From: a virus
Lineage: Duplodnaviria; Heunggongvirae; Uroviricota; Caudoviricetes
DNA length: 5,405 nucleotides
Strand: one strand, 5' to 3'
IMG/VR virus record: IMGVR_UViG_2534681653_000013
A program made the translations under genes and the position numbers. The notes below the pieces were generated by a model. It saw nothing but the letters and a program-made list of their open reading frames with translations. It did not search any database and was not told the DNA's origin. Shown one piece after another: positions 1 through 5,405 of the stretch. Each line of letters starts with the position of its first letter. Position 1 is the first letter of the stretch.

Positions 1-212
1 TCAGCACCTGAATCCGCGATTATCACATATACCTGGTTGCTGATTGCCCCTCCGCACAGGGGGATTCACCATGCGAAATTTTTTTAACAAACGCTCAGCA
101 TGTCAGGCAACATTCAACTGCCTGAATTGTGAGGCATTTAACATTTCACTGTCCGGTGTCTTTCCTGTAATAAAAAGCCCGCAAAAGAGAGTCAGGGCAG
201 ATAAGTGTGGTG

Positions 213-289
213 TGGCGCGTTGTACTGGATTCGGACCAGTGACCGATTGCTTAGAAGGCAATTGCTCTGTCCGGCTGAGCTAACAACGC
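213..289 (-). tRNA. tRNA-Arg, anticodon UCU (reads AGA)
   Basis: Hand-folded minus-strand cloverleaf: acceptor GCGTTGT/ACAACGC, D-stem GCTC/GAGC, anticodon stem ATTGC/GCAAT with loop CTTCTAA, T-stem ACTGG/CCAGT, discriminator G, encoded CCA. Same layout as E. coli argU. T-loop reads TCCGAAT (C at position 55). Confidence 0.75.
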
Positions 290-302
290 TGAATACCGAT
301 AA

Positions 303-379
303 TGGACCGCCATCGGGGACCCGAACCCCGCGCAACCAGCTTCGAAGGCTGGCGCTCTGTCCTGATGAGCTAATGGCGG
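303..379 (-). tRNA. tRNA-Arg, anticodon UCG (reads CGA/CGG)
   Basis: Hand-folded minus-strand cloverleaf: acceptor CCGCCAT/ATGGCGG, D-stem GCTC/GAGC, anticodon stem CCAGC/GCTGG with loop CTTCGAA, T-stem CGGGG/CCCCG, encoded CCA. T-loop reads TTCGGGT (G at position 58). Confidence 0.7.
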
Positions 380-388
380 TATGTGATA

Positions 389-464
389 TGGTGGCCCTTG
401 CTGGATTTGAACCAGCGACCTGGCGATTATGAGTCGCTCGCTCTCACCACTGAGCTAAAGGGCT
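389..464 (-). tRNA. tRNA with anticodon CAU (Ile2 lysidine-type like ileX/ileZ, or elongator Met)
   Basis: Hand-folded minus-strand cloverleaf: acceptor AGCCCTT/AAGGGCC (A1:C72 mismatch), D-stem GCTC/GAGC, anticodon loop CTCATAA, T-stem GCTGG/CCAGC with canonical T-loop TTCAAAT, discriminator A, encoded CCA. Overall resembles E. coli ileX as I recall it. Confidence 0.75.
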
Positions 465-626
465 GGGCGCAGGATAATAACGGTACGTAACTAATCCTGC
501 AATATCATCCGTTCTGACTGACTAAATCCTGAACTTCCCTGACCGTCTGCTCAAAACGTTCAGTCTCCAGCTCAACGCCAATTGCACGACGCCCCAGCGA
601 CATTGCTGCTTTGACGCTACGGACAT

Positions 627-655
627 AAAAAAGCCAGCCACTGGGGGAGGCTGGC
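627..655 (-). terminator. Intrinsic terminator on minus strand (candidate tR' of the late operon)
   Basis: Minus strand reads GCCAGCC-TCCCCCAGT-GGCTGGC followed by TTTTTT: a perfect 7-bp GC-rich stem, 9-nt loop and T-tract, about 255 nt downstream of the Q stop. Confidence 0.6.
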
Positions 656-726
656 AAACTCGTAGAGCAAAATGCTGTTACGCAAACTTCGTTACAGGGT
701 CATCCTGCAATACAAAAAATACACAA

Positions 727-756
727 TATTTAGAAAACTAATAGTGCCATGTGCAA
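727..756 (-). promoter_or_regulatory. Candidate sigma70-like late promoter (PR'-like) between the two terminators
   Basis: Minus strand TTGCAC, an 18-bp spacer, then TAAATA; the start site would lie about 70-90 nt upstream of the 627-655 terminator. Weak match, alternatives exist. Confidence 0.2.
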
Positions 757-835
757 TTTTTAAGATTTTGTTATTAATTGTGGTCGCACCTTCCTTTCTG
801 TGTACTTTCCGTATAGCTCACAGGATTCTGGGTAC

Positions 836-858
836 AAAAAAACCCGCGCATCGGCGGG
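836..858 (-). terminator. Intrinsic terminator-like hairpin about 50 nt downstream of Q
   Basis: Minus strand reads CCCGC-CGATGC-GCGGG followed by TTTTTTT: a 5-bp GC stem, 6-nt loop and 7-T tract. Confidence 0.5.
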
Positions 859-908
859 TTAATAAGCAGCGTGGCAATGTAACCACTCTTATCATGATAT
901 GCAGATTT

Positions 909-1343
909 TTACGATCGTAAACTATTTTTTCGCTGATAAAATACAGAGGTTCTCCCTCCCGGCAATTCACGCTCAACATACCGATCCATCTCAAGCCTCA
1001 CTCCCAGCATCATCAGCATGCCTTCAACAATCCCCTCCGCTTTGTGAAGGCGTTTACCTATACAGGTGTCAGAGCACCCATGTTTCCGTGCCAGCGCCAT
1101 GAACGTCTCCCCCAACACGTAATAATCAACCAGCAAGTCATGCAGATCGCGATTGTTCCGGTAAAGGCGGGCTATACACCCGCATATCACCATCGCATCA
1201 TCGTCACAGCACTGCGGGCGTGATTTTACTTTTTCGGGGATCAGTCCCTTAAAACCGGCGGCAATGGACGACCAGGTCACATCTTCATGATTATTAGCCG
1301 CCCACGCTCCCCAACGCTCAAGAACCATCTGAATATCACGCAT
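909..1343 (-). CDS. quuD: Late-gene antiterminator Q (quuD/Q933-type), 144 aa
   Basis: Track ORF 909-1358; I place the start at the ATG at 1343 because GGAG lies 7 nt upstream (the track's TTG at 1358 is less likely). Translation [24 protein letters not shown]... matches my memory of DLP12 QuuD / 933W-type Q. Cysteine clusters (QCCDDD, CGC, GCSDTC) fit a zinc-binding Q. Sits directly after the nin-type genes. Confidence 0.88.
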
Positions 1344-1389
1344 CAACTTACTCCACAAAAATCAGACCAGAACGCCAATTACAAGCAAA

Positions 1390-1415
1390 AATCAACAAAA
1401 CAGTATTAGTTGATT
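1390..1415 (-). terminator. Weak AT-rich hairpin with T-run between ylcG and Q (possible leaky terminator)
   Basis: Minus strand AATCAAC-(12 nt loop)-GTTGATT followed by TTTTGC; the stem is AT-rich, so predicted stability is low. Confidence 0.2.
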
Positions 1416-1428
1416 GTTATCTCTGACT

Positions 1429-1569
1429 TCATACTCCTGCTCCTGTCAGGGTTTTGGCGTAATTCTTCAGTATTCGGTAATCGGTCAAAACAGAACCGGG
1501 GAAACGATATAAGCGCAGACGCCCCCAGCGGTGGCGAAGAAGTTCTGCCATATTAAACTCAAACATCAT
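1429..1569 (-). CDS. ylcG: Small protein YlcG-like, 46 aa
   Basis: Hand translation: [46 protein letters not shown]. Its ATG overlaps the rusA stop (ATGA). Position between rusA and Q matches the K-12 DLP12 order. Below the track length cut-off. Confidence 0.6.
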
Positions 1570-1928
1570 TCATTCCCCATTTCGGTGATGGTCAGTTCCA
1601 GCCTCCCACCTTTGGTAACAGGCATCTTCACAACGCGGTAATCAACGACCTGAGCATCATCCAGCCAGAAACCTGCTTTAGTGAGTGCGTCAAAAGCGGC
1701 TTTTTGCAGATTATCCAGGTCACGGCGACGGCGATCCGGCATGTGGCACTCAATGCGGATTTTCACAGGCATAGCCAGGCCGATATCCAGCATTGCGTTT
1801 TTAATGATTCGGGCGACGTTATCGCGGTATGCCTGCCCCTCTGCACTGACGTGCGTGCGCCCGCGATTATGGCGGTAATAGCGATTATTGCTCGGAGGCC
1901 AGGGTAATGTGATACTGTAGGTATTCAC
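1566..1928 (-). CDS. rusA: Holliday-junction resolvase RusA, 120 aa
   Basis: Track ORF; translation [26 protein letters not shown]... with the acidic [18 protein letters not shown] region typical of RusA. GTG start at 1928 overlaps the ybcO stop (GTGA). Confidence 0.92.
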
Positions 1929-2215
1929 GCCTTAATAACCCCCTCTTTCAGCCAGATAACCTGTGTTCTCGCCATACCTTCCAGCGCGCATTCTTTTGCA
2001 TATGCAGCATCGACAAAATGTGTGCGGCGGTCGATTTCGTCGTGGCAGGCAGAACATGCAATGGTGGCAATCAGGTCTGGCGGTTTGATACCGGTACCGC
2101 ACAATCCAGCCAGCCGGATATGTGCCAGTACAGACGTTTCAGAATTGCCATTACATACGCCAGGGATTCTTACCTGGCATTCCCGACCACGCGCTGCTTT
2201 TCTCAAATCAGCCAT
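1925..2215 (-). CDS. ybcO: YbcO-like (DUF1364) Cys-rich putative nuclease, 96 aa
   Basis: Track ORF 1925-2254 trimmed to the ATG at 2215, which has AGGAGG 5 nt upstream. Translation [24 protein letters not shown]... carries conserved Cys/His. Its start overlaps the ninE 3' end by 8 nt. Confidence 0.85.
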
Positions 2216-2378
2216 GATTCCTCCTTGCTGCCAGTCGCAACCATTTTTTATCAACCAGGCTAGCGGTATATCCGAGCAGTGTTGGTATTTCGGATGGCTT
2301 CAGCTCAGGCTTACGCTTACGACGATTTGATACTCTGTAGATGTGTCCGTTCATGACACGAATAAGCGGTGTAGCCAT
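2208..2378 (-). CDS. ninE: NinE-like small basic protein, 56 aa
   Basis: Hand translation: [56 protein letters not shown]. Its ATG overlaps the ybcN stop (TAATG). Below the track length cut-off. Confidence 0.75.
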   Translation of the reverse strand: MATPLIRVMNGHIYRVSNRRKRKPELKPSEIPTLLGYTASLVDKKWLRLAARRNHG

Positions 2379-2833
2379 TACGCCTCCTGCTTGTCACGGA
2401 GCTGCTGGAACTCGCAGCTCTGCGGAATAGTCAGATGGCAACCAATATTCATCGCCCAGGCTTCAACCTTACACAGGAAGACATACATCTCTCCGGTATC
2501 AAGATCGGAGGTATGGCGTAACGACTGGATAGTGGTGATATCACCGGTTACGACATCAACCAGGTCTTTGGTTTCATAACCGAGATATGTGTGTTTGAGA
2601 GCATCTTTTACCCAAGCTGGAGTGGCGAACGTTTTACCCCTGCTGATGAGGTATTCACTGATTTCGCTGTACCACATGTGGCTGAGTGCATTCTGGGAAA
2701 GACTGCGTTTCTCACGCCACGGTTTAAGCACCATGCGAAAGCATTTGCCCTCCTCCAGATAAGGCTGGATCTGCCGACCGATAGCGGTGAAGTTGCCGCG
2801 ATGTAATTTGATGCCGTCTTGTGAGAGGTTCAC
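2378..2833 (-). CDS. ybcN: YbcN / NinB-family recombination (DNA base-flipping) protein, 151 aa
   Basis: Track ORF; GTG start at 2833 preceded by GGAGGTG with a 4-nt spacer. Translation [30 protein letters not shown]... matches my memory of DLP12 YbcN. Confidence 0.9.
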
Positions 2834-2931
2834 GCTTCACCTCCGCAGAGGTCAAACGCTAGATGCAAAGAATTGCAGGTGCATTTCTGCATCTGTGAAG
2901 GGAGAAGAGAGTTTGGATTGTATGTGCGCAT
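2830..2931 (-). CDS. ylcH: Small ORF YlcH-like, 33 aa
   Basis: Hand translation: [33 protein letters not shown]. Its stop overlaps the ybcN GTG start (GTGA); GGGGA lies upstream of the ATG. Position matches ylcH in K-12 DLP12. Short, so coding status is uncertain. Confidence 0.5.
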
Positions 2932-2954
2932 AAACGTCCCCGTTTAGCGCAGAA

Positions 2955-2983
2955 GTCACCGGAGTTGTTCAGGCTCCGGTGAC
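2955..2983. repeat. Perfect 10-bp palindrome GTCACCGGAG-N9-CTCCGGTGAC
   Basis: Read directly from the sequence. Lies in the ybcM-ylcH intergenic region, immediately downstream of the candidate -10 at 2987-2992. Confidence 0.6.
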
Positions 2984-2986
2984 ATA

Positions 2987-3015
2987 ATTATGCCGTGTTG
3001 ATTTCCCAAAATCAA
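2987..3015 (-). promoter_or_regulatory. Candidate sigma70 promoter for the ylcH-ybcN-ninE-ybcO-rusA-ylcG-Q block
   Basis: Minus strand TTGATT (-35, 3010-3015), 17-bp spacer, CATAAT (-10, 2987-2992). The predicted start site falls within the right arm of the adjacent palindrome. Confidence 0.3.
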
Positions 3016-3047
3016 AATCGATAGAATTGCTCCTTCTTAAAACACTT

Positions 3048-3845
3048 TTACTCTCTGGAAGCTTTTCTTATCTCTCTTGGTGTTATATTAAAACGATTAT
3101 GAAATCTTTCAGTAAAACGCGAAGGACACTTATAACCATTTTCTCTGGCAATCTCGCTTATAGGTTTTACCGTCGTTTGTATAGCAGACAACGCATTATT
3201 TAACCTCACATCGTCCAGTATACTTTGGAAACTTACCCCCTCGCTTGCTAGACGGCGATGTAATGTAGAAACAGAAATGTAGAGATATCGAGCAACCTTG
3301 TTTGCTGTCCATTTTGTGCCGGGTTCGGATAGCAGCAGGTTATAACAACGACTTATCAATGATTGTTTACTATATGATAAAAGTAAATGATTAACATGAT
3401 TCACTCCTAACGAAAGTAGAACGCCCATTGCTAAGTGCTCCTGAATTTTAGTTGAGAAGCCTCGGGAAACAGATGTTTTTAGTTGCTCCCAACAATATAT
3501 TAACTCAGGATTCTGAGGTAAAAAGAAACTTGTTTTGTTACGTATTTGATCAGTTACCGTATAAAGCTTTTGGAAACTCTCAATTAAATCAATGGGTAAG
3601 TAAAGCATTTCTGCAAGATAAAGCCCTGCTTCAGGATAATTCTCAATATAAAATTCATAACCACAAGGAAATAATATTATTTGATTATTATCAACAGTTA
3701 AAGTATGCGTCTCCCAATTGATAACTTTCTTTCCCTGACGGATACGACACAAAGCTGGCATAAGAGGCTTAACCCTATGAATCTCATGATGTTTATGCAT
3801 CCGTATTTCTTCGATCTTTAAGTTAGTCTTACCTCTTGCCAGCAT
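3048..3845 (-). CDS. ybcM: AraC/XylS-family transcriptional regulator YbcM, 265 aa
   Basis: Track ORF; ATG at 3845. The C-terminal region ([43 protein letters not shown]...) looks like a tandem AraC-type helix-turn-helix. Visibly AT-rich coding sequence. Confidence 0.88.
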
Positions 3846-3854
3846 ACTCTCACC

Positions 3855-4406
3855 CTACTTTATCTCATAAACTGGTGTTATCTCAGCGGTTGCGATTTTA
3901 TTAGCATTAAGCATATAACCAACTAACGCTCCGCTGGAGTTAGAATCTACAGGAATCTTTTCAGTTTTTAGAGCCCATACTTTAAACTGGTAATGATGTG
4001 GTTTATCTCCTTTAGGAGGACATGCGCCACCAAACCCAGCATAGCCAAAATCATTTCGGCCTTGAACAGCACCAGTCGGCAGTTTTGTTCCATCACGTCT
4101 CCCTGCATCAACGGGCAAATATGTTACTGTTGCTGGAATATTAACAACAGTCCAATGCCACCAACCACTGCCTGTAGGTGCATCTGGATCATATACAGTT
4201 ACGGCAAAGCTTTTGGTACCTTCAGGAACACCAGACCAGGTTAATGAGGGCGATGTATTACCACCTTCACACCCAAATCCAGAAAAGACATGAGACGTTG
4301 TAAGTTGCTCTCCTGTTTTTATTTCATTACTAGCGACCTGAAATGCTGCAGCCTGCGCAGAAAATGTTATGAATGCCAATACAGTTGAAACGATAAGTGT
4401 TTTCAT
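3855..4406 (-). CDS. ybcL: Periplasmic PEBP-family protein YbcL, 183 aa
   Basis: Track ORF; ATG at 4406 with AAGAGG about 6 nt upstream. N-terminal signal peptide MKTLIVSTVLAFITFSAQAAA. PEBP/YbhB-family motifs YDPDAP and GDKPHHYQF. Stop is 9 nt upstream of the ybcM ATG. Confidence 0.9.
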   Translation of the reverse strand: MKTLIVSTVLAFITFSAQAAAFQVASNEIKTGEQLTTSHVFSGFGCEGGNTSPSLTWSGVPEGTKSFAVTVYDPDAPTGSGWWHWTVVNIPATVTYLPVDAGRRDGTKLPTGAVQGRNDFGYAGFGGACPPKGDKPHHYQFKVWALKTEKIPVDSNSSGALVGYMLNANKIATAEITPVYEIK

Positions 4407-4622
4407 AAAAACCTCTTTGTTATGACCTATCGTTATTTTATTTGATATTCCTTTATCTCATTATGCATAAAGGCGCAATGTTCATGCAAAAGCAATCACA
4501 ATTGTACCCCCAACCCAATTATTTGCCACAATATACACAAAGCACATTGATACTATCTAAAAACTCTGCTTTATTATTAGTAATACCTACGAAAGTCGGT
4601 GTTATTTTTTAACCTACCATTC

Positions 4623-4672
4623 AAAATACGTGACATACACCATTTTGCTCATAATAATTTGTCACGTATTTT
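4623..4672. repeat. Perfect 13-bp inverted repeat AAAATACGTGACA-N24-TGTCACGTATTTT
   Basis: Read directly from the sequence. Sits in the AT-rich intergenic region upstream of ybcL; candidate operator or paired half-sites. Confidence 0.5.
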
Positions 4673-4870
4673 CAGTATTTGAATCTGCGACCAAGAGTTC
4701 TCACCTAACAAATGATTAAGATTGTATAGCTCATTTACTACCCCAATACAGCCGTACAAAACTCGCTTGTGGGAGCAAACAAAGTAATTACCCATTAAGT
4801 TTCGTTAAAGATAATTAATTCTGTCTTGCACTTTATCATCATAGCATAACTTAAAATCCGAGATCATTAT

Positions 4871-5329
4871 TTAGAAATAAATCTCACCATCAACCATATA
4901 TTTGAGAGCACTTATCGCCTGCTGGGCAGATATTACTTTCATTAAAGGATAGTGTTTAAAAACAATGCCATTCATAAAATAGATATCACAGGTTTTATTA
5001 TCCGTATTAATTATGATTTTTTCGAATATTTTATAGGCAAGTGTACGGCATAACTCTCGTCCATTTTTACTGGTTAAGTCAATAGCATAAAAATCACTGA
5101 ATGAATTTACACCTTTACTCTTCAAAGTTTTCAATGATACCGAAGCCCTTCGTAATTCCTTATCTAATAGTCTTATTTTCTCTGCTATAGCGGTAACTTC
5201 AGGCGCGACAGACAATGCAACGATTAAATTATTAATTTTCATCTGAAGCTCAATAATTTTTAACTCTAAAGTTTCATTAGCATCTTTCTTGTTTTCAACT
5301 GGTTGAATTTTGCTACAATTAAAAAGCAA
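4871..5329 (-). CDS. Recombinase-like ORF, 152 aa as tracked; possibly the C-terminal part of a disrupted ybcK-like serine recombinase
   Basis: Track ORF starting at TTG with no convincing Shine-Dalgarno at TTG 5329 or the internal ATG. Predicted coiled-coil stretch followed by a C-terminal region that resembles large-serine-recombinase C-termini (impression only). In-frame TAA at 5363-5365 closes the frame upstream, while a different frame is open from the window edge to about 5267. Confidence 0.4.
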   Translation of the reverse strand: MLFNCSKIQPVENKKDANETLELKIIELQMKINNLIVALSVAPEVTAIAEKIRLLDKELRRASVSLKTLKSKGVNSFSDFYAIDLTSKNGRELCRTLAYKIFEKIIINTDNKTCDIYFMNGIVFKHYPLMKVISAQQAISALKYMVDGEIYF

Positions 5330-5405
5330 TTCTGAACCGCCCCGGGTTTCCTGGAGAGTGTTTTATCTGTGAACTCAGGCTGCCAGATCATCGTTTCCGA
5401 TGGAA

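What the first reader, a model, noticed from the sequence alone, without database searches (positions are those of the whole stretch)
3048..4406. ybcL-ybcM cargo pair (secreted PEBP-family protein plus AraC regulator) embedded in the phage early-right region
A signal-peptide-bearing PEBP/Raf-kinase-inhibitor-like protein and an AraC-family regulator sit between the recombinase-like gene and the nin genes, and are visibly more AT-rich than the nin block (composition not computed). As I recall, the YbcL variant from uropathogenic E. coli was reported to suppress neutrophil migration, with activity depending on a single residue difference from K-12. Which allele this strain carries would need a residue-level comparison.
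Basis: partly seen in the sequence, partly recalled or inferred. Interest (0 to 1): 0.5.

Follow-up and report, generated by a model that had tools for sequence, protein, structure and literature searches.

The report
Known ybcL-ybcM prophage cargo operon
This is the already-described ybcL-ybcM gene pair (a periplasmic PEBP-fold protein plus its own AraC-type regulator) riding as AT-rich cargo in an E. coli O157:H7 lambdoid prophage; it carries the laboratory K-12 type allele, not the uropathogen allele reported to block neutrophil migration, so it is essentially ordinary.

Summary
Window 3855-4406 (-) encodes YbcL, a 183-aa PEBP protein with a signal peptide. Window 3048-3845 (-) encodes YbcM, a 265-aa AraC-family regulator. 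Only 9 nt separate them. They lie between the serine recombinase gene ybcK and the nin genes of a prophage that sits at mlrA/yehV in the closest complete O157:H7 genomes.

The pair is clearly AT-rich: GC 0.43 and 0.37, GC3 0.26 and 0.29. The nin block has GC 0.51.

The residue question is answered. YbcL here equals K-12 YbcL except for T25A. It carries the K-12 residue at every position where K-12 differs from UPEC UTI89. That includes V99 (mature residue 78), which is T in UTI89. It is therefore the allele type reported as non-suppressive.

YbcM regulation of ybcL is already published (K-12 ChIP-exo), and the bound sequence is identical here.

- The ybcL-ybcM cassette occurs in 75 of 80 species loci across Gamma- and Betaproteobacteria.
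- It keeps a conserved double 17-bp box, spaced 21 bp, plus a -10 element at a fixed offset.
- In UPEC the pair sits in a fully decayed DLP12-like prophage remnant next to fliE.

Verdict: a known element with a low-interest allele. The conserved operator is a modest side result.

The parts
3855..4406 (-). ybcL CDS, 183 aa. Periplasmic PEBP/RKIP-fold protein of the K-12 allele type, with T25A.
   Evidence: ORF. PF01161 at E 3e-42. NF007330 equivalog at 399 bits. Residues 20-183 match 1FUX except at residues 21 and 25; K-12 itself has A21, so the residue-21 difference belongs to the 1FUX construct. One nt and one aa differ from MG1655.
4344..4406 (-). Codons 1-21 of ybcL: Sec-type signal peptide MKTLIVSTVLAFITFSAQAAA.
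   Evidence: Sequence features. The 1FUX chain begins at residue 20. Periplasmic location is stated in PMC4810123. A cleavage site after residue 21 is inferred from the published residue number 78, which corresponds to precursor 99.
4110..4112 (-). Codon 99 of ybcL (GTT, Val), which is mature residue 78. This position distinguishes the K-12 type (V), the UTI89 type (T, ACT) and the commonest E. coli type (A, GCT).
   Evidence: Alignments A1 and A4. Codon sequences. Allele counts.
4332..4334 (-). Codon 25 of ybcL (GCT, Ala). This is the only difference from K-12 (ACT, Thr). It is unique among 79 homologs, where S or T predominates.
3048..3845 (-). ybcM CDS, 265 aa. AraC/XylS-family regulator, 100% identical to K-12 YbcM.
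   Evidence: ORF. PF12833 at 61.5 bits. Alignment A2. Published ChIP-exo and H2O2 phenotype in K-12 (PMC8464067). Nalidixic-acid hyperlethality of ybcM::Tn5 (PMC2824699).
3063..3293 (-). C-terminal HTH_18 DNA-binding domain of YbcM (residues 185-261).
   Evidence: Pfam coordinates. Translation.
4480..4496 (-). Distal YbcM-type box, ATTGCTTTTGCATGAAC. It lies inside the K-12 ChIP-exo peak.
   Evidence: Phylogenetic footprint. The ChIP-exo peak at 570015-570048 in NC_000913.2 coordinates equals window 4474-4507.
4459..4475 (-). Proximal YbcM-type box, CGCCTTTATGCATAATG, 21 bp from the distal box. It overlaps the predicted -35 position.
   Evidence: The same CTTTATGCAT decamer lies beside the second-strongest K-12 ChIP-exo peak, at ucpA.
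4435..4440 (-). Predicted -10 hexamer TAAAAT of the ybcLM promoter. The predicted transcription start is near 4428 and the Shine-Dalgarno AAGAGG is at 4412-4417.
   Evidence: A TAnnnT hexamer sits at this exact offset from the proximal box in 44 of 44 homologous upstream regions. The background rate is 0.014 per position. Sequence. The transcription start is not experimentally mapped.
2831..4561 (-). The transferable cargo module: promoter region, ybcL, ybcM and the ylcH segment. It is shared at 89% identity with the phage-free fliE-yedK islet of UTI89, Nissle 1917 and most E. coli.
   Evidence: blastn. Annotation of the islets.
2830..2931 (-). ylcH (33 aa, orf33 of phage 82). This is phage-backbone sequence preceding ybcN/ninB, not part of the AT-rich cargo.
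   Evidence: Annotation. Window 2831-3016 also matches many lambdoid phages that lack ybcLM. GC 0.48. The reading frame is disrupted in UTI89.
4871..5332 (-). 3' portion (153 codons) of ybcK, a large serine recombinase gene. It is cut at 5332/5333 by an insertion sequence.
   Evidence: Annotation. Pfam Resolvase, Recombinase and Zn_ribbon_recom domains on the K-12 orthologue. blastn break point.
5333..5405 (.). Terminal 73 bp of IS629/IS1203 (TGAACCGCCCCGGG...), inserted in ybcK.
   Evidence: 100% match to the end of the IS1203 copy in EC4115.

Best explanation
The interval is the ybcL-ybcM operon, a self-contained cargo ('moron') module in the early-right (PR) region of a DLP12/phage-82-like lambdoid prophage of E. 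coli O157:H7. It lies between ren-emrE-ybcK and the nin genes.

Shown:
- YbcL is a PEBP-fold protein with a Sec-type signal peptide, and its conserved pocket residues are intact.
- YbcM is an AraC-family DNA-binding protein encoded 9 nt downstream.
- In K-12, whose sequences are identical here, YbcM's strongest in vivo binding site lies 68-101 bp upstream of ybcL.
- Loss of ybcM sensitises cells to H2O2 and nalidixic acid.

Inferred:
- YbcM binds two 17-bp direct repeats spaced 21 bp (window 4480-4496 and 4459-4475).
- The promoter-proximal repeat overlaps the -35 position of a promoter whose -10 is TAAAAT (4435-4440).
- YbcM therefore most likely acts as a class-II-type activator of its own operon, probably in response to a small molecule sensed by its N-terminal domain. 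This drives export of YbcL to the periplasm.

The cassette is ancient and chromosomal in many Proteobacteria. In E. coli it is a foreign, AT-rich acquisition that travels on lambdoid phages and outlives them.

The YbcL allele here is the K-12 type, with V at precursor 99 (mature 78). By the published UPEC work it is not expected to suppress neutrophil transepithelial migration. Its likely role is bacterial stress physiology, not host manipulation.
For: Identity:
- Family matches for both proteins.
- 1FUX identity over the mature protein.
- 100% nucleotide identity to O157:H7 genomes annotated ybcL/ybcM.

Context:
- Prophage at mlrA/yehV in EC4115.
- Same gene order in K-12 DLP12 and in the complete phage PhiR34_1.

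Allele:
- Alignments A1 and A4 and the codon list.
- UTI89 ybcL was located at L008:32400-32951.
- Review statement on the single-residue determinant (PMC4810123).

Regulation:
- K-12 ChIP-exo site with S/N 357, 'operon ybcLM', RNAP-bound, and an 8-fold H2O2 survival defect in the ybcM deletion (PMC8464067).
- The coordinate version was verified through the ucpA site.
- The window is identical to K-12 from -170 to +3.
- The double box at 21-bp spacing appears in 44 of 79 upstream regions by regex, against 2 of 1046 control windows.
- By position weight matrix it appears in 74 of 74 loci with an adjacent ybcM and 0 of 5 without.
- A TAnnnT hexamer sits at the fixed offset in 44 of 44.

Functional constraint: dN/dS is 0.10 (ybcL) and 0.13 (ybcM) between the prophage and islet copies.

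Cassette conservation:
- A YbcM-like gene lies immediately downstream on the same strand in 75 of 80 species loci.
- No other neighbour is conserved across these loci.
- The pair's GC tracks the host genome elsewhere and is low only in Escherichia.

Cargo status:
- Composition.
- Many lambdoid phages have the ylcH/ninB junction but lack the module.
Against: - No transcription start, footprint or reporter data were available to me. The direction of YbcM control (activation or repression) is inferred from geometry only.
- The ChIP-exo peak also covers a second promoter-like site, GTGGCA-17-TACAAT at 4529-4501. That would imply repression. A supplementary table of PMC8464067 lists 'Repressor' next to YbcM.
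- The position weight matrix was trained on 44 of the 74 positive loci, and many loci are related species (about 30 are Pseudomonas). The counts are not independent events.
- The molecular activity of YbcL and the YbcM inducer are unknown.
'V78T' rests on my memory of its abstract. The allele call does not depend on it, because the window matches K-12 at every K-12/UTI89 difference.
- The effect of the extra T25A change is untested.
- No intrinsic terminator was found after ybcM.
Confidence: 0.8

Rival explanations
1. YbcM is an autorepressor. It binds over the -10 and transcription start of an upstream promoter (GTGGCA-17-TACAAT, window 4529-4501) and shuts off ybcLM until a signal releases it.
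For: - The consensus scan finds this promoter-like site.
- The K-12 ChIP-exo peak (window 4474-4507) begins at that TACAAT.
- UTI89 has a perfect TATAAT at the same place.
- A supplementary table of PMC8464067 lists the predicted role 'Repressor' for YbcM.
Against: - The scan found no more promoter-like sites than in shuffled sequence: 7 against 7.8 +/- 2.7.
- The element conserved across orders is the double box plus a TAnnnT at a fixed offset downstream of the proximal box, in 44 of 44 regions. That is the geometry of AraC/XylS-type activation.
- I did not test whether the upstream TACAAT is conserved outside Escherichia.
Confidence: 0.2
2. The O157:H7 YbcL is a host-directed effector like UPEC YbcL. 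It would be released by lysis, for example on prophage induction, and would dampen neutrophil recruitment in the gut.
For: - 96% identical to UTI89 YbcL.
- Periplasmic, and released by bacterial lysis in UPEC (PMC4810123).
- It sits in an inducible-type prophage context.
Against: - It has V at precursor 99 and the K-12 residue at all K-12/UTI89 differences.
- The review states that K-12 and commensal homologs cannot suppress PMN migration because of a single residue change.
- The UTI89 allele is also carried by the probiotic strain Nissle 1917, so the allele alone does not mark pathogens.
Confidence: 0.08
3. The pair is silent, decaying junk: AT-rich foreign DNA kept off by H-NS, with no current function in this strain.
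For: - Strongly AT-rich with many rare codons: ybcM has 26 rare codons out of 265.
- It lies in a degrading prophage. ybcK is cut by IS629 here, and the P gene is cut by IS1203 in EC4115.
Against: - dN/dS is 0.10-0.13 over dS of 0.19-0.35.
- Both reading frames are intact in every genome examined.
- The module is retained where all phage genes are gone.
- The operator is conserved.
- RNAP is bound at the K-12 site, and the ybcM mutant has stress phenotypes.
Confidence: 0.07
4. The pair serves the phage, for example in superinfection exclusion, anti-phage defence, or control of the adjacent nin/Q genes.
For: - Its location in the early-right operon beside ren, an exclusion gene.
- Three complete temperate phages carry it.
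Against: - No PADLOC defence-family hit for YbcL, YbcM or YbcK.
- PHROG families 5139 and 6899 have unknown function.
- The cassette is chromosomal, not phage-linked, and compositionally native in most other taxa.
- It persists in phage-free islets.
Confidence: 0.05

Closest known systems
ybcL-ybcM (b0545-b0546) of cryptic prophage DLP12, E. coli K-12 MG1655
   Same: - Same genes in the same order (emrE-ylcJ-ybcK-ybcL-ybcM-ylcH-ybcN-ninE-ybcO-rusA-ylcG-Q).
- 97.8% nucleotide identity over window 1011-5332.
- YbcM is 100% identical, and YbcL differs only at residue 25.
- The promoter region from -170 to +3 is identical.
   Different: - The host prophage is integrated at mlrA/yehV, not argU.
- The Q gene 3' end and everything downstream differ. 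Here there are three tRNA genes in place of nmpC.
- ybcK is interrupted by IS629.
- YbcL has A25 instead of T25.
YbcL of uropathogenic E. coli UTI89 (WP_001313946.1), the reported neutrophil-migration suppressor
   Same: - 96% identical protein with the same signal peptide type and the same PEBP pocket residues.
- The same downstream ybcM and the same upstream boxes.
   Different: - Seven residue differences: T3K, T8S, A25T, V60A, V88A, V99T, E149D. Position 99 (mature 78) is the only V/T difference.
- The UTI89 copy is not in a recognisable prophage. It sits in a fliE-yedK islet that is colinear with DLP12 but lacks ylcJ-ybcK and ybcN-to-Q.
YbhB, the cytoplasmic core-genome PEBP paralogue of E. 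coli (PDB 1FJJ, 1VI3)
   Same: Same fold family, with the DPDAPTGSGWWHW motif conserved. E 9e-50 to the window protein.
   Different: - YbhB has no signal peptide; the alignment starts at window residue 22.
- YbhB scores below the cutoff of its own equivalog model when the window protein is scanned (NF007609, 201 bits against a cutoff of 226).
- I recall no adjacent AraC gene next to ybhB, but that was not checked here.
AraC/XylS-family activators that bind tandem direct repeats overlapping -35 (for example RhaS, XylS, AraC at I1-I2)
   Same: - C-terminal dual-HTH domain.
- Two about 17-bp direct repeats at 21-bp spacing, with the proximal one abutting the -35 position of a promoter that has a weak -35. 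The comparison with those regulators rests on established knowledge of the family.
   Different: - No equivalog match; the best NCBIfam scores are far below cutoffs.
- The N-terminal domain gives only a sub-threshold ExsA_N hit.
- The inducer is unknown, and activation has not been demonstrated.

Membership tests
PEBP/RKIP family, YbhB/YbcL subfamily | Significant match to the PBP domain (PF01161) and to the YbcL equivalog model. | tested here: met
   PF01161 at 144.5 bits against a cutoff of 24. NF007330 at 399.2 bits against a cutoff of 277. TIGR00481 at 189.5 bits against a cutoff of 57.75.
PEBP/RKIP family, YbhB/YbcL subfamily | Conserved ligand-pocket residues (DPDxP motif, following His, and the later His-x-Tyr). 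| tested here: met
   D73, P74, P77, H84, H137, Y139 and G102 are invariant in 79 aligned homologs and present in the window protein. D75 is present in 74 of 79.
PEBP/RKIP family, YbhB/YbcL subfamily | PEBP fold shown by structure. | tested here: met
   Residues 20-183 match PDB 1FUX (K-12 YbcL) except at residues 21 and 25 (E 7e-112). K-12 itself has A21, so the residue-21 difference belongs to the 1FUX construct. No new model was needed.
Secreted (periplasmic) YbcL type, as opposed to cytoplasmic YbhB type | N-terminal Sec signal peptide. | tested here: met
   MKTLIVSTVLAFITFSAQAAA has a basic residue, a hydrophobic core and an AxA site. The 1FUX chain starts at residue 20. Periplasmic localisation is stated in PMC4810123. 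No dedicated predictor was available.
UPEC-type, neutrophil-migration-suppressing YbcL allele | Thr at mature residue 78 (precursor 99), as in UTI89. | tested here: not met
   The window has Val (GTT) and UTI89 has Thr (ACT). The window also has the K-12 residue at every other K-12/UTI89 difference. The residue number comes from my memory of the primary paper. The single-residue statement itself is in PMC4810123.
UPEC-type, neutrophil-migration-suppressing YbcL allele | Suppression of transepithelial PMN migration in an assay. | not testable with these tools
   Needs the cell-culture or mouse cystitis assay.
AraC/XylS family transcriptional regulators | C-terminal dual helix-turn-helix domain. 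| tested here: met
   PF12833 at 61.5 bits against a cutoff of 33.6, residues 185-261. PF00165 at 29.1 bits against a cutoff of 26.6.
AraC/XylS family transcriptional regulators | N-terminal ligand-binding or dimerisation domain. | tested here: inconclusive
   Only a sub-threshold ExsA_N hit (20.5 bits against a cutoff of 27). About 180 N-terminal residues are conserved among 73 orthologues, but their function is unknown.
AraC/XylS family transcriptional regulators | Sequence-specific binding at target promoters. | tested here: met
   Published K-12 ChIP-exo peak upstream of ybcL (PMC8464067), on a sequence identical to the window. A conserved double box co-occurs with ybcM in 74 of 74 loci and in 0 of 5 loci without it. 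There was no direct binding assay here.
Phage moron / lysogenic-conversion cargo | Inserted between conserved phage backbone genes and absent from related phages. | tested here: met
   It lies between ren and ninB-like ybcN. At least 14 lambdoid phage records match only the 2831-3016 backbone junction and lack the module.
Phage moron / lysogenic-conversion cargo | Base composition distinct from the surrounding phage genes. | tested here: met
   GC 0.393 against 0.507, z = 6.4. GC3 0.26-0.29 against 0.44-0.59.
Phage moron / lysogenic-conversion cargo | Own promoter and own terminator. | tested here: inconclusive
   A conserved promoter with operator is predicted, and the K-12 site is RNAP-bound. 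No convincing intrinsic terminator lies between ybcM and ylcH.

The most novel reading that the evidence does not exclude
The secreted PEBP gene, the AraC-type regulator gene and the double-box operator may form one ancient, autonomous sensing unit. It is conserved from Pseudomonas and Chromobacterium to Enterobacterales, and E. coli acquired it on lambdoid phages. If YbcM activates the operon in response to a small molecule, that inducer is likely the physiological ligand or substrate of the periplasmic PEBP. Bacterial PEBP function is a long-open question, and an inducer screen on a simple reporter would then give it a direct experimental handle. Neutrophil suppression by the UPEC T99 allele would be a recent side use of a variable surface loop. 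I found no mention of this cassette or operator in the papers I could read. One review states that PEBP genes are rarely in conserved gene neighbourhoods (PMC8793217).
Probability: 0.4. Interest if true: 0.5.

Novelty: already known. Interest (0 to 1): 0.25.

Why it matters
For this window it matters little. The genes are annotated and structurally solved, the regulator's binding site is published, and the allele is the inactive laboratory type.

Three points are worth keeping:

1. Numbering trap. The published residue 78 counts from the mature protein and equals precursor 99. Precursor T78 is invariant and irrelevant.

2. Three-state polymorphism at position 99. V occurs in about 535-670 complete genomes. 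T occurs in 386, including UTI89, Nissle 1917 and ATCC 25922. A occurs in most of the remaining roughly 2250, and as far as I know its activity is untested.

3. The conserved cassette and operator offer a cheap way to look for the signal that controls bacterial secreted PEBPs.

Tried and rejected
- Primary papers. I tried to read Lau 2012, Lau 2014 and the JoVE method by PMC id and PubMed id. None is held. A search for 'V78T' returned only ytterbium chloride and unrelated hits. Other citing papers give no residue detail.
- Numbering. I first read 'residue 78' as precursor T78 (DAPTGSG). That position is invariant in all alleles, so I rejected this reading. The only V/T difference is at precursor 99.
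- Locating UTI89 ybcL. I looked at the DLP12 site (argU). The prophage is almost entirely absent there. A first guess at the fli region landed in the HPI/pks islands. The gene was found on the third try.
- Conserved neighbours. I looked for neighbours of the pair in 78 loci. Only ybcL and ybcM are shared, and the other clusters are clade-specific or antisense artefacts.
- Defence scan. PADLOC gave no hits.
- Opposite-strand and small ORFs. ORFs at 3027-3203, 3452-3721, 3993-4244, 4442-4612 and 4649-4795 have no Pfam match. I treat them as non-coding.
- Generic promoter scan. It found no more sites than in shuffled sequence and missed the conserved promoter, because the -35 is weak.
- E. coli-style motif. 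ATGCAT-type motifs are not conserved outside Escherichia. The conserved core is GGCACAA.
- Structure prediction and fold search were not run, because a near-identical solved structure exists (1FUX).
Full report
**1. What is in the window**

All genes lie on the minus strand. From high to low coordinates they are:
- the terminal 73 bp of an IS629/IS1203 element (5333-5405);
- the 3' 153 codons of ybcK (4871-5332);
- a 464-bp AT-rich spacer;
- ybcL (3855-4406) and ybcM (3048-3845);
- ylcH (2830-2931), ybcN (2378-2833), ninE, ybcO, rusA and ylcG;
- a Q antiterminator gene (909-1343) and a methylase gene fragment;
- three tRNA genes (213-464).

These assignments rest on Pfam matches, ARAGORN and the RefSeq annotation of E. 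coli O157:H7 EC4115. That genome matches window 1-5332 with two mismatches.

In EC4115 the region belongs to a lambdoid prophage integrated at mlrA (yehV). The order there is cI/cro-type genes, O, P (cut by IS1203), ren, emrE, ylcJ, ybcK, ybcL, ybcM, the nin genes, Q, tRNAs, lysis genes, then head and tail genes.

**2. The observation**

- YbcL (183 aa) matches PF01161 at E 3e-42 and the NCBIfam YbcL equivalog at 399 bits against a cutoff of 277.
- Its residues 20-183 match the crystallised K-12 protein 1FUX except at residues 21 and 25. K-12 itself has A21, so only residue 25 is a real difference.
- The N-terminus MKTLIVSTVLAFITFSAQAAA has the features of a Sec signal peptide. A review reports the protein as periplasmic (PMC4810123).
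- YbcM (265 aa) has the AraC-type HTH_18 domain at residues 185-261.
- The two genes are 9 nt apart, with a GGTGAGAG ribosome-binding stretch between them.

Composition separates the pair from the nin genes.

| Region | GC | GC3 |
|---|---|---|
| ybcM | 0.365 | 0.293 |
| ybcL | 0.426 | 0.255 |
| nin genes (per gene) | 0.48-0.53 | 0.44-0.59 |
| core chromosomal genes | not listed | 0.571 |

The whole module has GC 0.393 against 0.507 for the nin block, z = 6.4. ybcK and the spacer are even more AT-rich, at 0.31-0.33.

**3. Which allele**

UTI89 has lost almost all of DLP12 at argU. Its ybcL lies between fliE and yedK. It is identical to the Nissle 1917 protein.

K-12 and UTI89 YbcL differ at T3K, T8S, V60A, V88A, V99T and E149D. 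The only V/T difference is at precursor 99. That equals residue 78 once a 21-residue signal peptide is removed. It matches the 'V78T' I recall from the abstract of Lau et al. 2012. Precursor T78 is invariant and is not the site.

The window protein has the K-12 residue at all six positions. It differs from K-12 only by T25A, a single nucleotide change.

Whatever the true numbering, this is therefore the K-12-type allele. The review describes that type as unable to suppress PMN migration because of a single residue change.

Position 99 lies in a hypervariable loop. Among 79 homologs it is A, S, R, T, V, K or E, while the pocket residues are invariant.

Across 5426 complete E. coli genomes:

| Residue 99 | Codon | Genomes |
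|---|---|---|
| V | GTT | 535 with the exact 66-mer, plus 138 with one or two mismatches |
| T | ACT | 386 with the exact UTI89 66-mer |
| A | GCT | most of the remaining roughly 2250 |

The A estimate rests on three fetched genomes that all read GCT.

E. albertii has GTT, which suggests V is ancestral and T arose through A.

**4. Does YbcM regulate ybcL?**

This is already published for K-12. ChIP-exo under paraquat found 12 YbcM sites. By far the strongest (S/N 357, RNAP-bound) lies upstream of 'operon ybcLM'. A ybcM deletion survives H2O2 8-fold less well (PMC8464067). A ybcM::Tn5 mutant is hyper-killed by nalidixic acid and is complemented by the cloned gene (PMC2824699).

The dataset uses NC_000913.2 coordinates. 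I verified this with the ucpA site. The peak therefore maps 68-101 bp upstream of the ybcL ATG, which is window 4474-4507. K-12 and the window are identical from -170 to +3.

**5. A conserved cassette and operator**

A scan of one genome per species found 493 YbcL relatives, and I kept the best 80 loci.

In 75 of the 80 loci a YbcM-like gene (30-60% identity) lies immediately downstream on the same strand. The taxa include Escherichia, Yersinia, Edwardsiella, Enterobacter, Klebsiella, Serratia, Pseudomonas, Undibacterium and Chromobacterium. No other neighbour is shared across these taxa.

Outside Escherichia the pair's GC follows that of its flanks, from 0.37 to 0.74, so it is native there.

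The upstream regions share two direct repeats of a box with consensus GAGCGTTTCGGCACAA, spaced exactly 21 bp.
- A crude pattern finds the pair in 44 of 79 regions, against 2 of 1046 control windows.
- A weight matrix finds it in 74 of 74 loci that have ybcM and in 0 of 5 that lack it.
- In 44 of 44 cases a TAnnnT hexamer lies at one fixed offset downstream of the proximal box. The background rate is 0.014 per position.

The matrix was trained on 44 of these loci, and many species are related. The counts therefore overstate independence.

In the window the elements are as follows:
- distal box ATTGCTTTTGCATGAAC (4480-4496, inside the ChIP-exo peak);
- proximal box CGCCTTTATGCATAATG (4459-4475);
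- -10 hexamer TAAAAT (4435-4440);
- Shine-Dalgarno AAGAGG (4412-4417).

The decamer CTTTATGCAT also lies beside the second-strongest K-12 peak, at ucpA.

This geometry is typical of AraC/XylS activators whose proximal site overlaps -35. I therefore infer positive autoregulation.

Repression from an upstream TACAAT site remains a live alternative. One supplementary table of the ChIP-exo paper lists 'Repressor' for YbcM.

**6. Cargo status and history**

Window 1011-5332 is 97.8% identical to K-12 DLP12, without gaps.

Window 2831-4561 is 89% identical to the fliE-yedK islet of UTI89, Nissle 1917 and a stool isolate. That islet is colinear with DLP12 but lacks ylcJ-ybcK and everything from ybcN to most of quuD. 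It keeps only emrE, ybcL, ybcM and an nmpC-like porin gene. It is a prophage remnant in which the cargo genes alone survive.

Distribution across 5426 complete genomes:
- About 2564 carry the islet-type copy.
- About 669 carry the prophage-type copy.
- Few genomes carry more than one copy: 3332 places in 3234 genomes.

Three complete temperate phages (PhiR34_1, PhiR68_2, PhiR70_1) carry the module at 99.7-99.8% identity, in the same position. Many other lambdoid phages share only the 186-bp ylcH/ninB junction and lack the module.

dN/dS between the prophage and islet copies is 0.10 for ybcL and 0.12-0.13 for ybcM, so both genes are under purifying selection. No anti-phage defence model matches.

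**7. Verdict**

The finding is real and correctly interpreted, but it is an already known element and the allele is the uninteresting one.

The most useful outcomes are the allele call with the numbering clarification and the position-99 polymorphism. A side result is that the secreted PEBP, the AraC regulator and the double-box operator form a widely conserved unit. I did not find that reported. One review says PEBP genes are rarely in conserved neighbourhoods (PMC8793217).

Noticed in passing
window 5333-5405 (junction at 5332/5333): The window ends in the terminal 73 bp of IS629/IS1203 (TGAACCGCCCCGGG...), inserted in ybcK 153 codons before its stop. ybcK is therefore a pseudogene in this strain. 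The best-ranked of 5426 complete E. coli genomes all stop matching at 5332, so this insertion site seems absent from that collection. Only 66 genomes cover at least 80% of the window in one place.
   Followed up: partly
L008:29671-33528 (UTI89); also L005 (Nissle 1917) and L006: The fliE-yedK islet of UTI89, Nissle 1917 and most E. coli is colinear with DLP12 but retains only emrE, ybcL, ybcM and an nmpC-like porin gene. ylcJ-ybcK and ybcN-to-Q are cleanly missing. It is a prophage reduced to its cargo genes. The ylcH frame is broken there.
   Followed up: yes
ybcL codon 99, window 4110-4112; hits H128-H167: Position 99 has three states in E. coli: V (GTT), A (GCT) and T (ACT). The A allele appears to be the commonest, in about 2250 of 5426 genomes by sampling. 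It differs from the UTI89 protein only at this residue in some strains (WP_001310919.1). I know of no test of its activity. The probiotic Nissle 1917 carries the 'suppressive' T allele.
   Followed up: partly
window 213-464: Three tRNA genes lie downstream of Q: Arg-UCU, Arg-UCG and a CAU-anticodon tRNA that RefSeq calls tRNA-Ile. They decode rare codons. ybcM is rich in exactly such codons (11 ATA, 6 AGA, 2 CGA in 265 codons). Position 464, the first base of the CAU tRNA gene, is one of only two differences from EC4115.
   Followed up: no
window 2955-3015: Just downstream of ybcM there is a promoter-like site (TTGATT-17-CATAAT, 3015-2987) followed by a perfect 29-bp palindrome, GTCACCGGAGCCTGAACAACTCCGGTGAC (2983-2955). 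The phage 82 record X92588 annotates these as a putative promoter and a 'possible regulator-binding site' ahead of orf33/ylcH and the rusA operon.
   Followed up: partly
window 909-1011: Homology to K-12 DLP12 stops at window 1011, inside the Q gene. The last ~100 nt of Q (435 nt here, 384 nt for quuD) and everything downstream differ from K-12. This is a mosaic junction inside the antiterminator gene.
   Followed up: no
L094:2742-2754 (K-12 ucpA upstream): The decamer CTTTATGCAT of the proximal ybcL box recurs next to the second-strongest published YbcM ChIP-exo peak, upstream of ucpA. This hints at the E. coli form of the YbcM recognition sequence.
   Followed up: partly
loci L027, L034, L042, L054, L084: Five YbcL homolog loci (Tahibacter, an Elusimicrobia MAG, two Pseudomonas and a Janthinobacterium MAG) lack an adjacent ybcM-like gene, and they also lack the double box upstream. 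L042 is held for only about 950 bases beyond the ybcL match, at the contig end, so ybcM may simply be cut off there.
   Followed up: no
window 4649-4795 (-): A 48-aa ORF in the ybcK-ybcL spacer is annotated as a hypothetical protein in phage PhiR34_1 (L092:8819-8965). It has no Pfam match and is not annotated in RefSeq O157 or K-12 records, so it is probably not a gene.
   Followed up: partly
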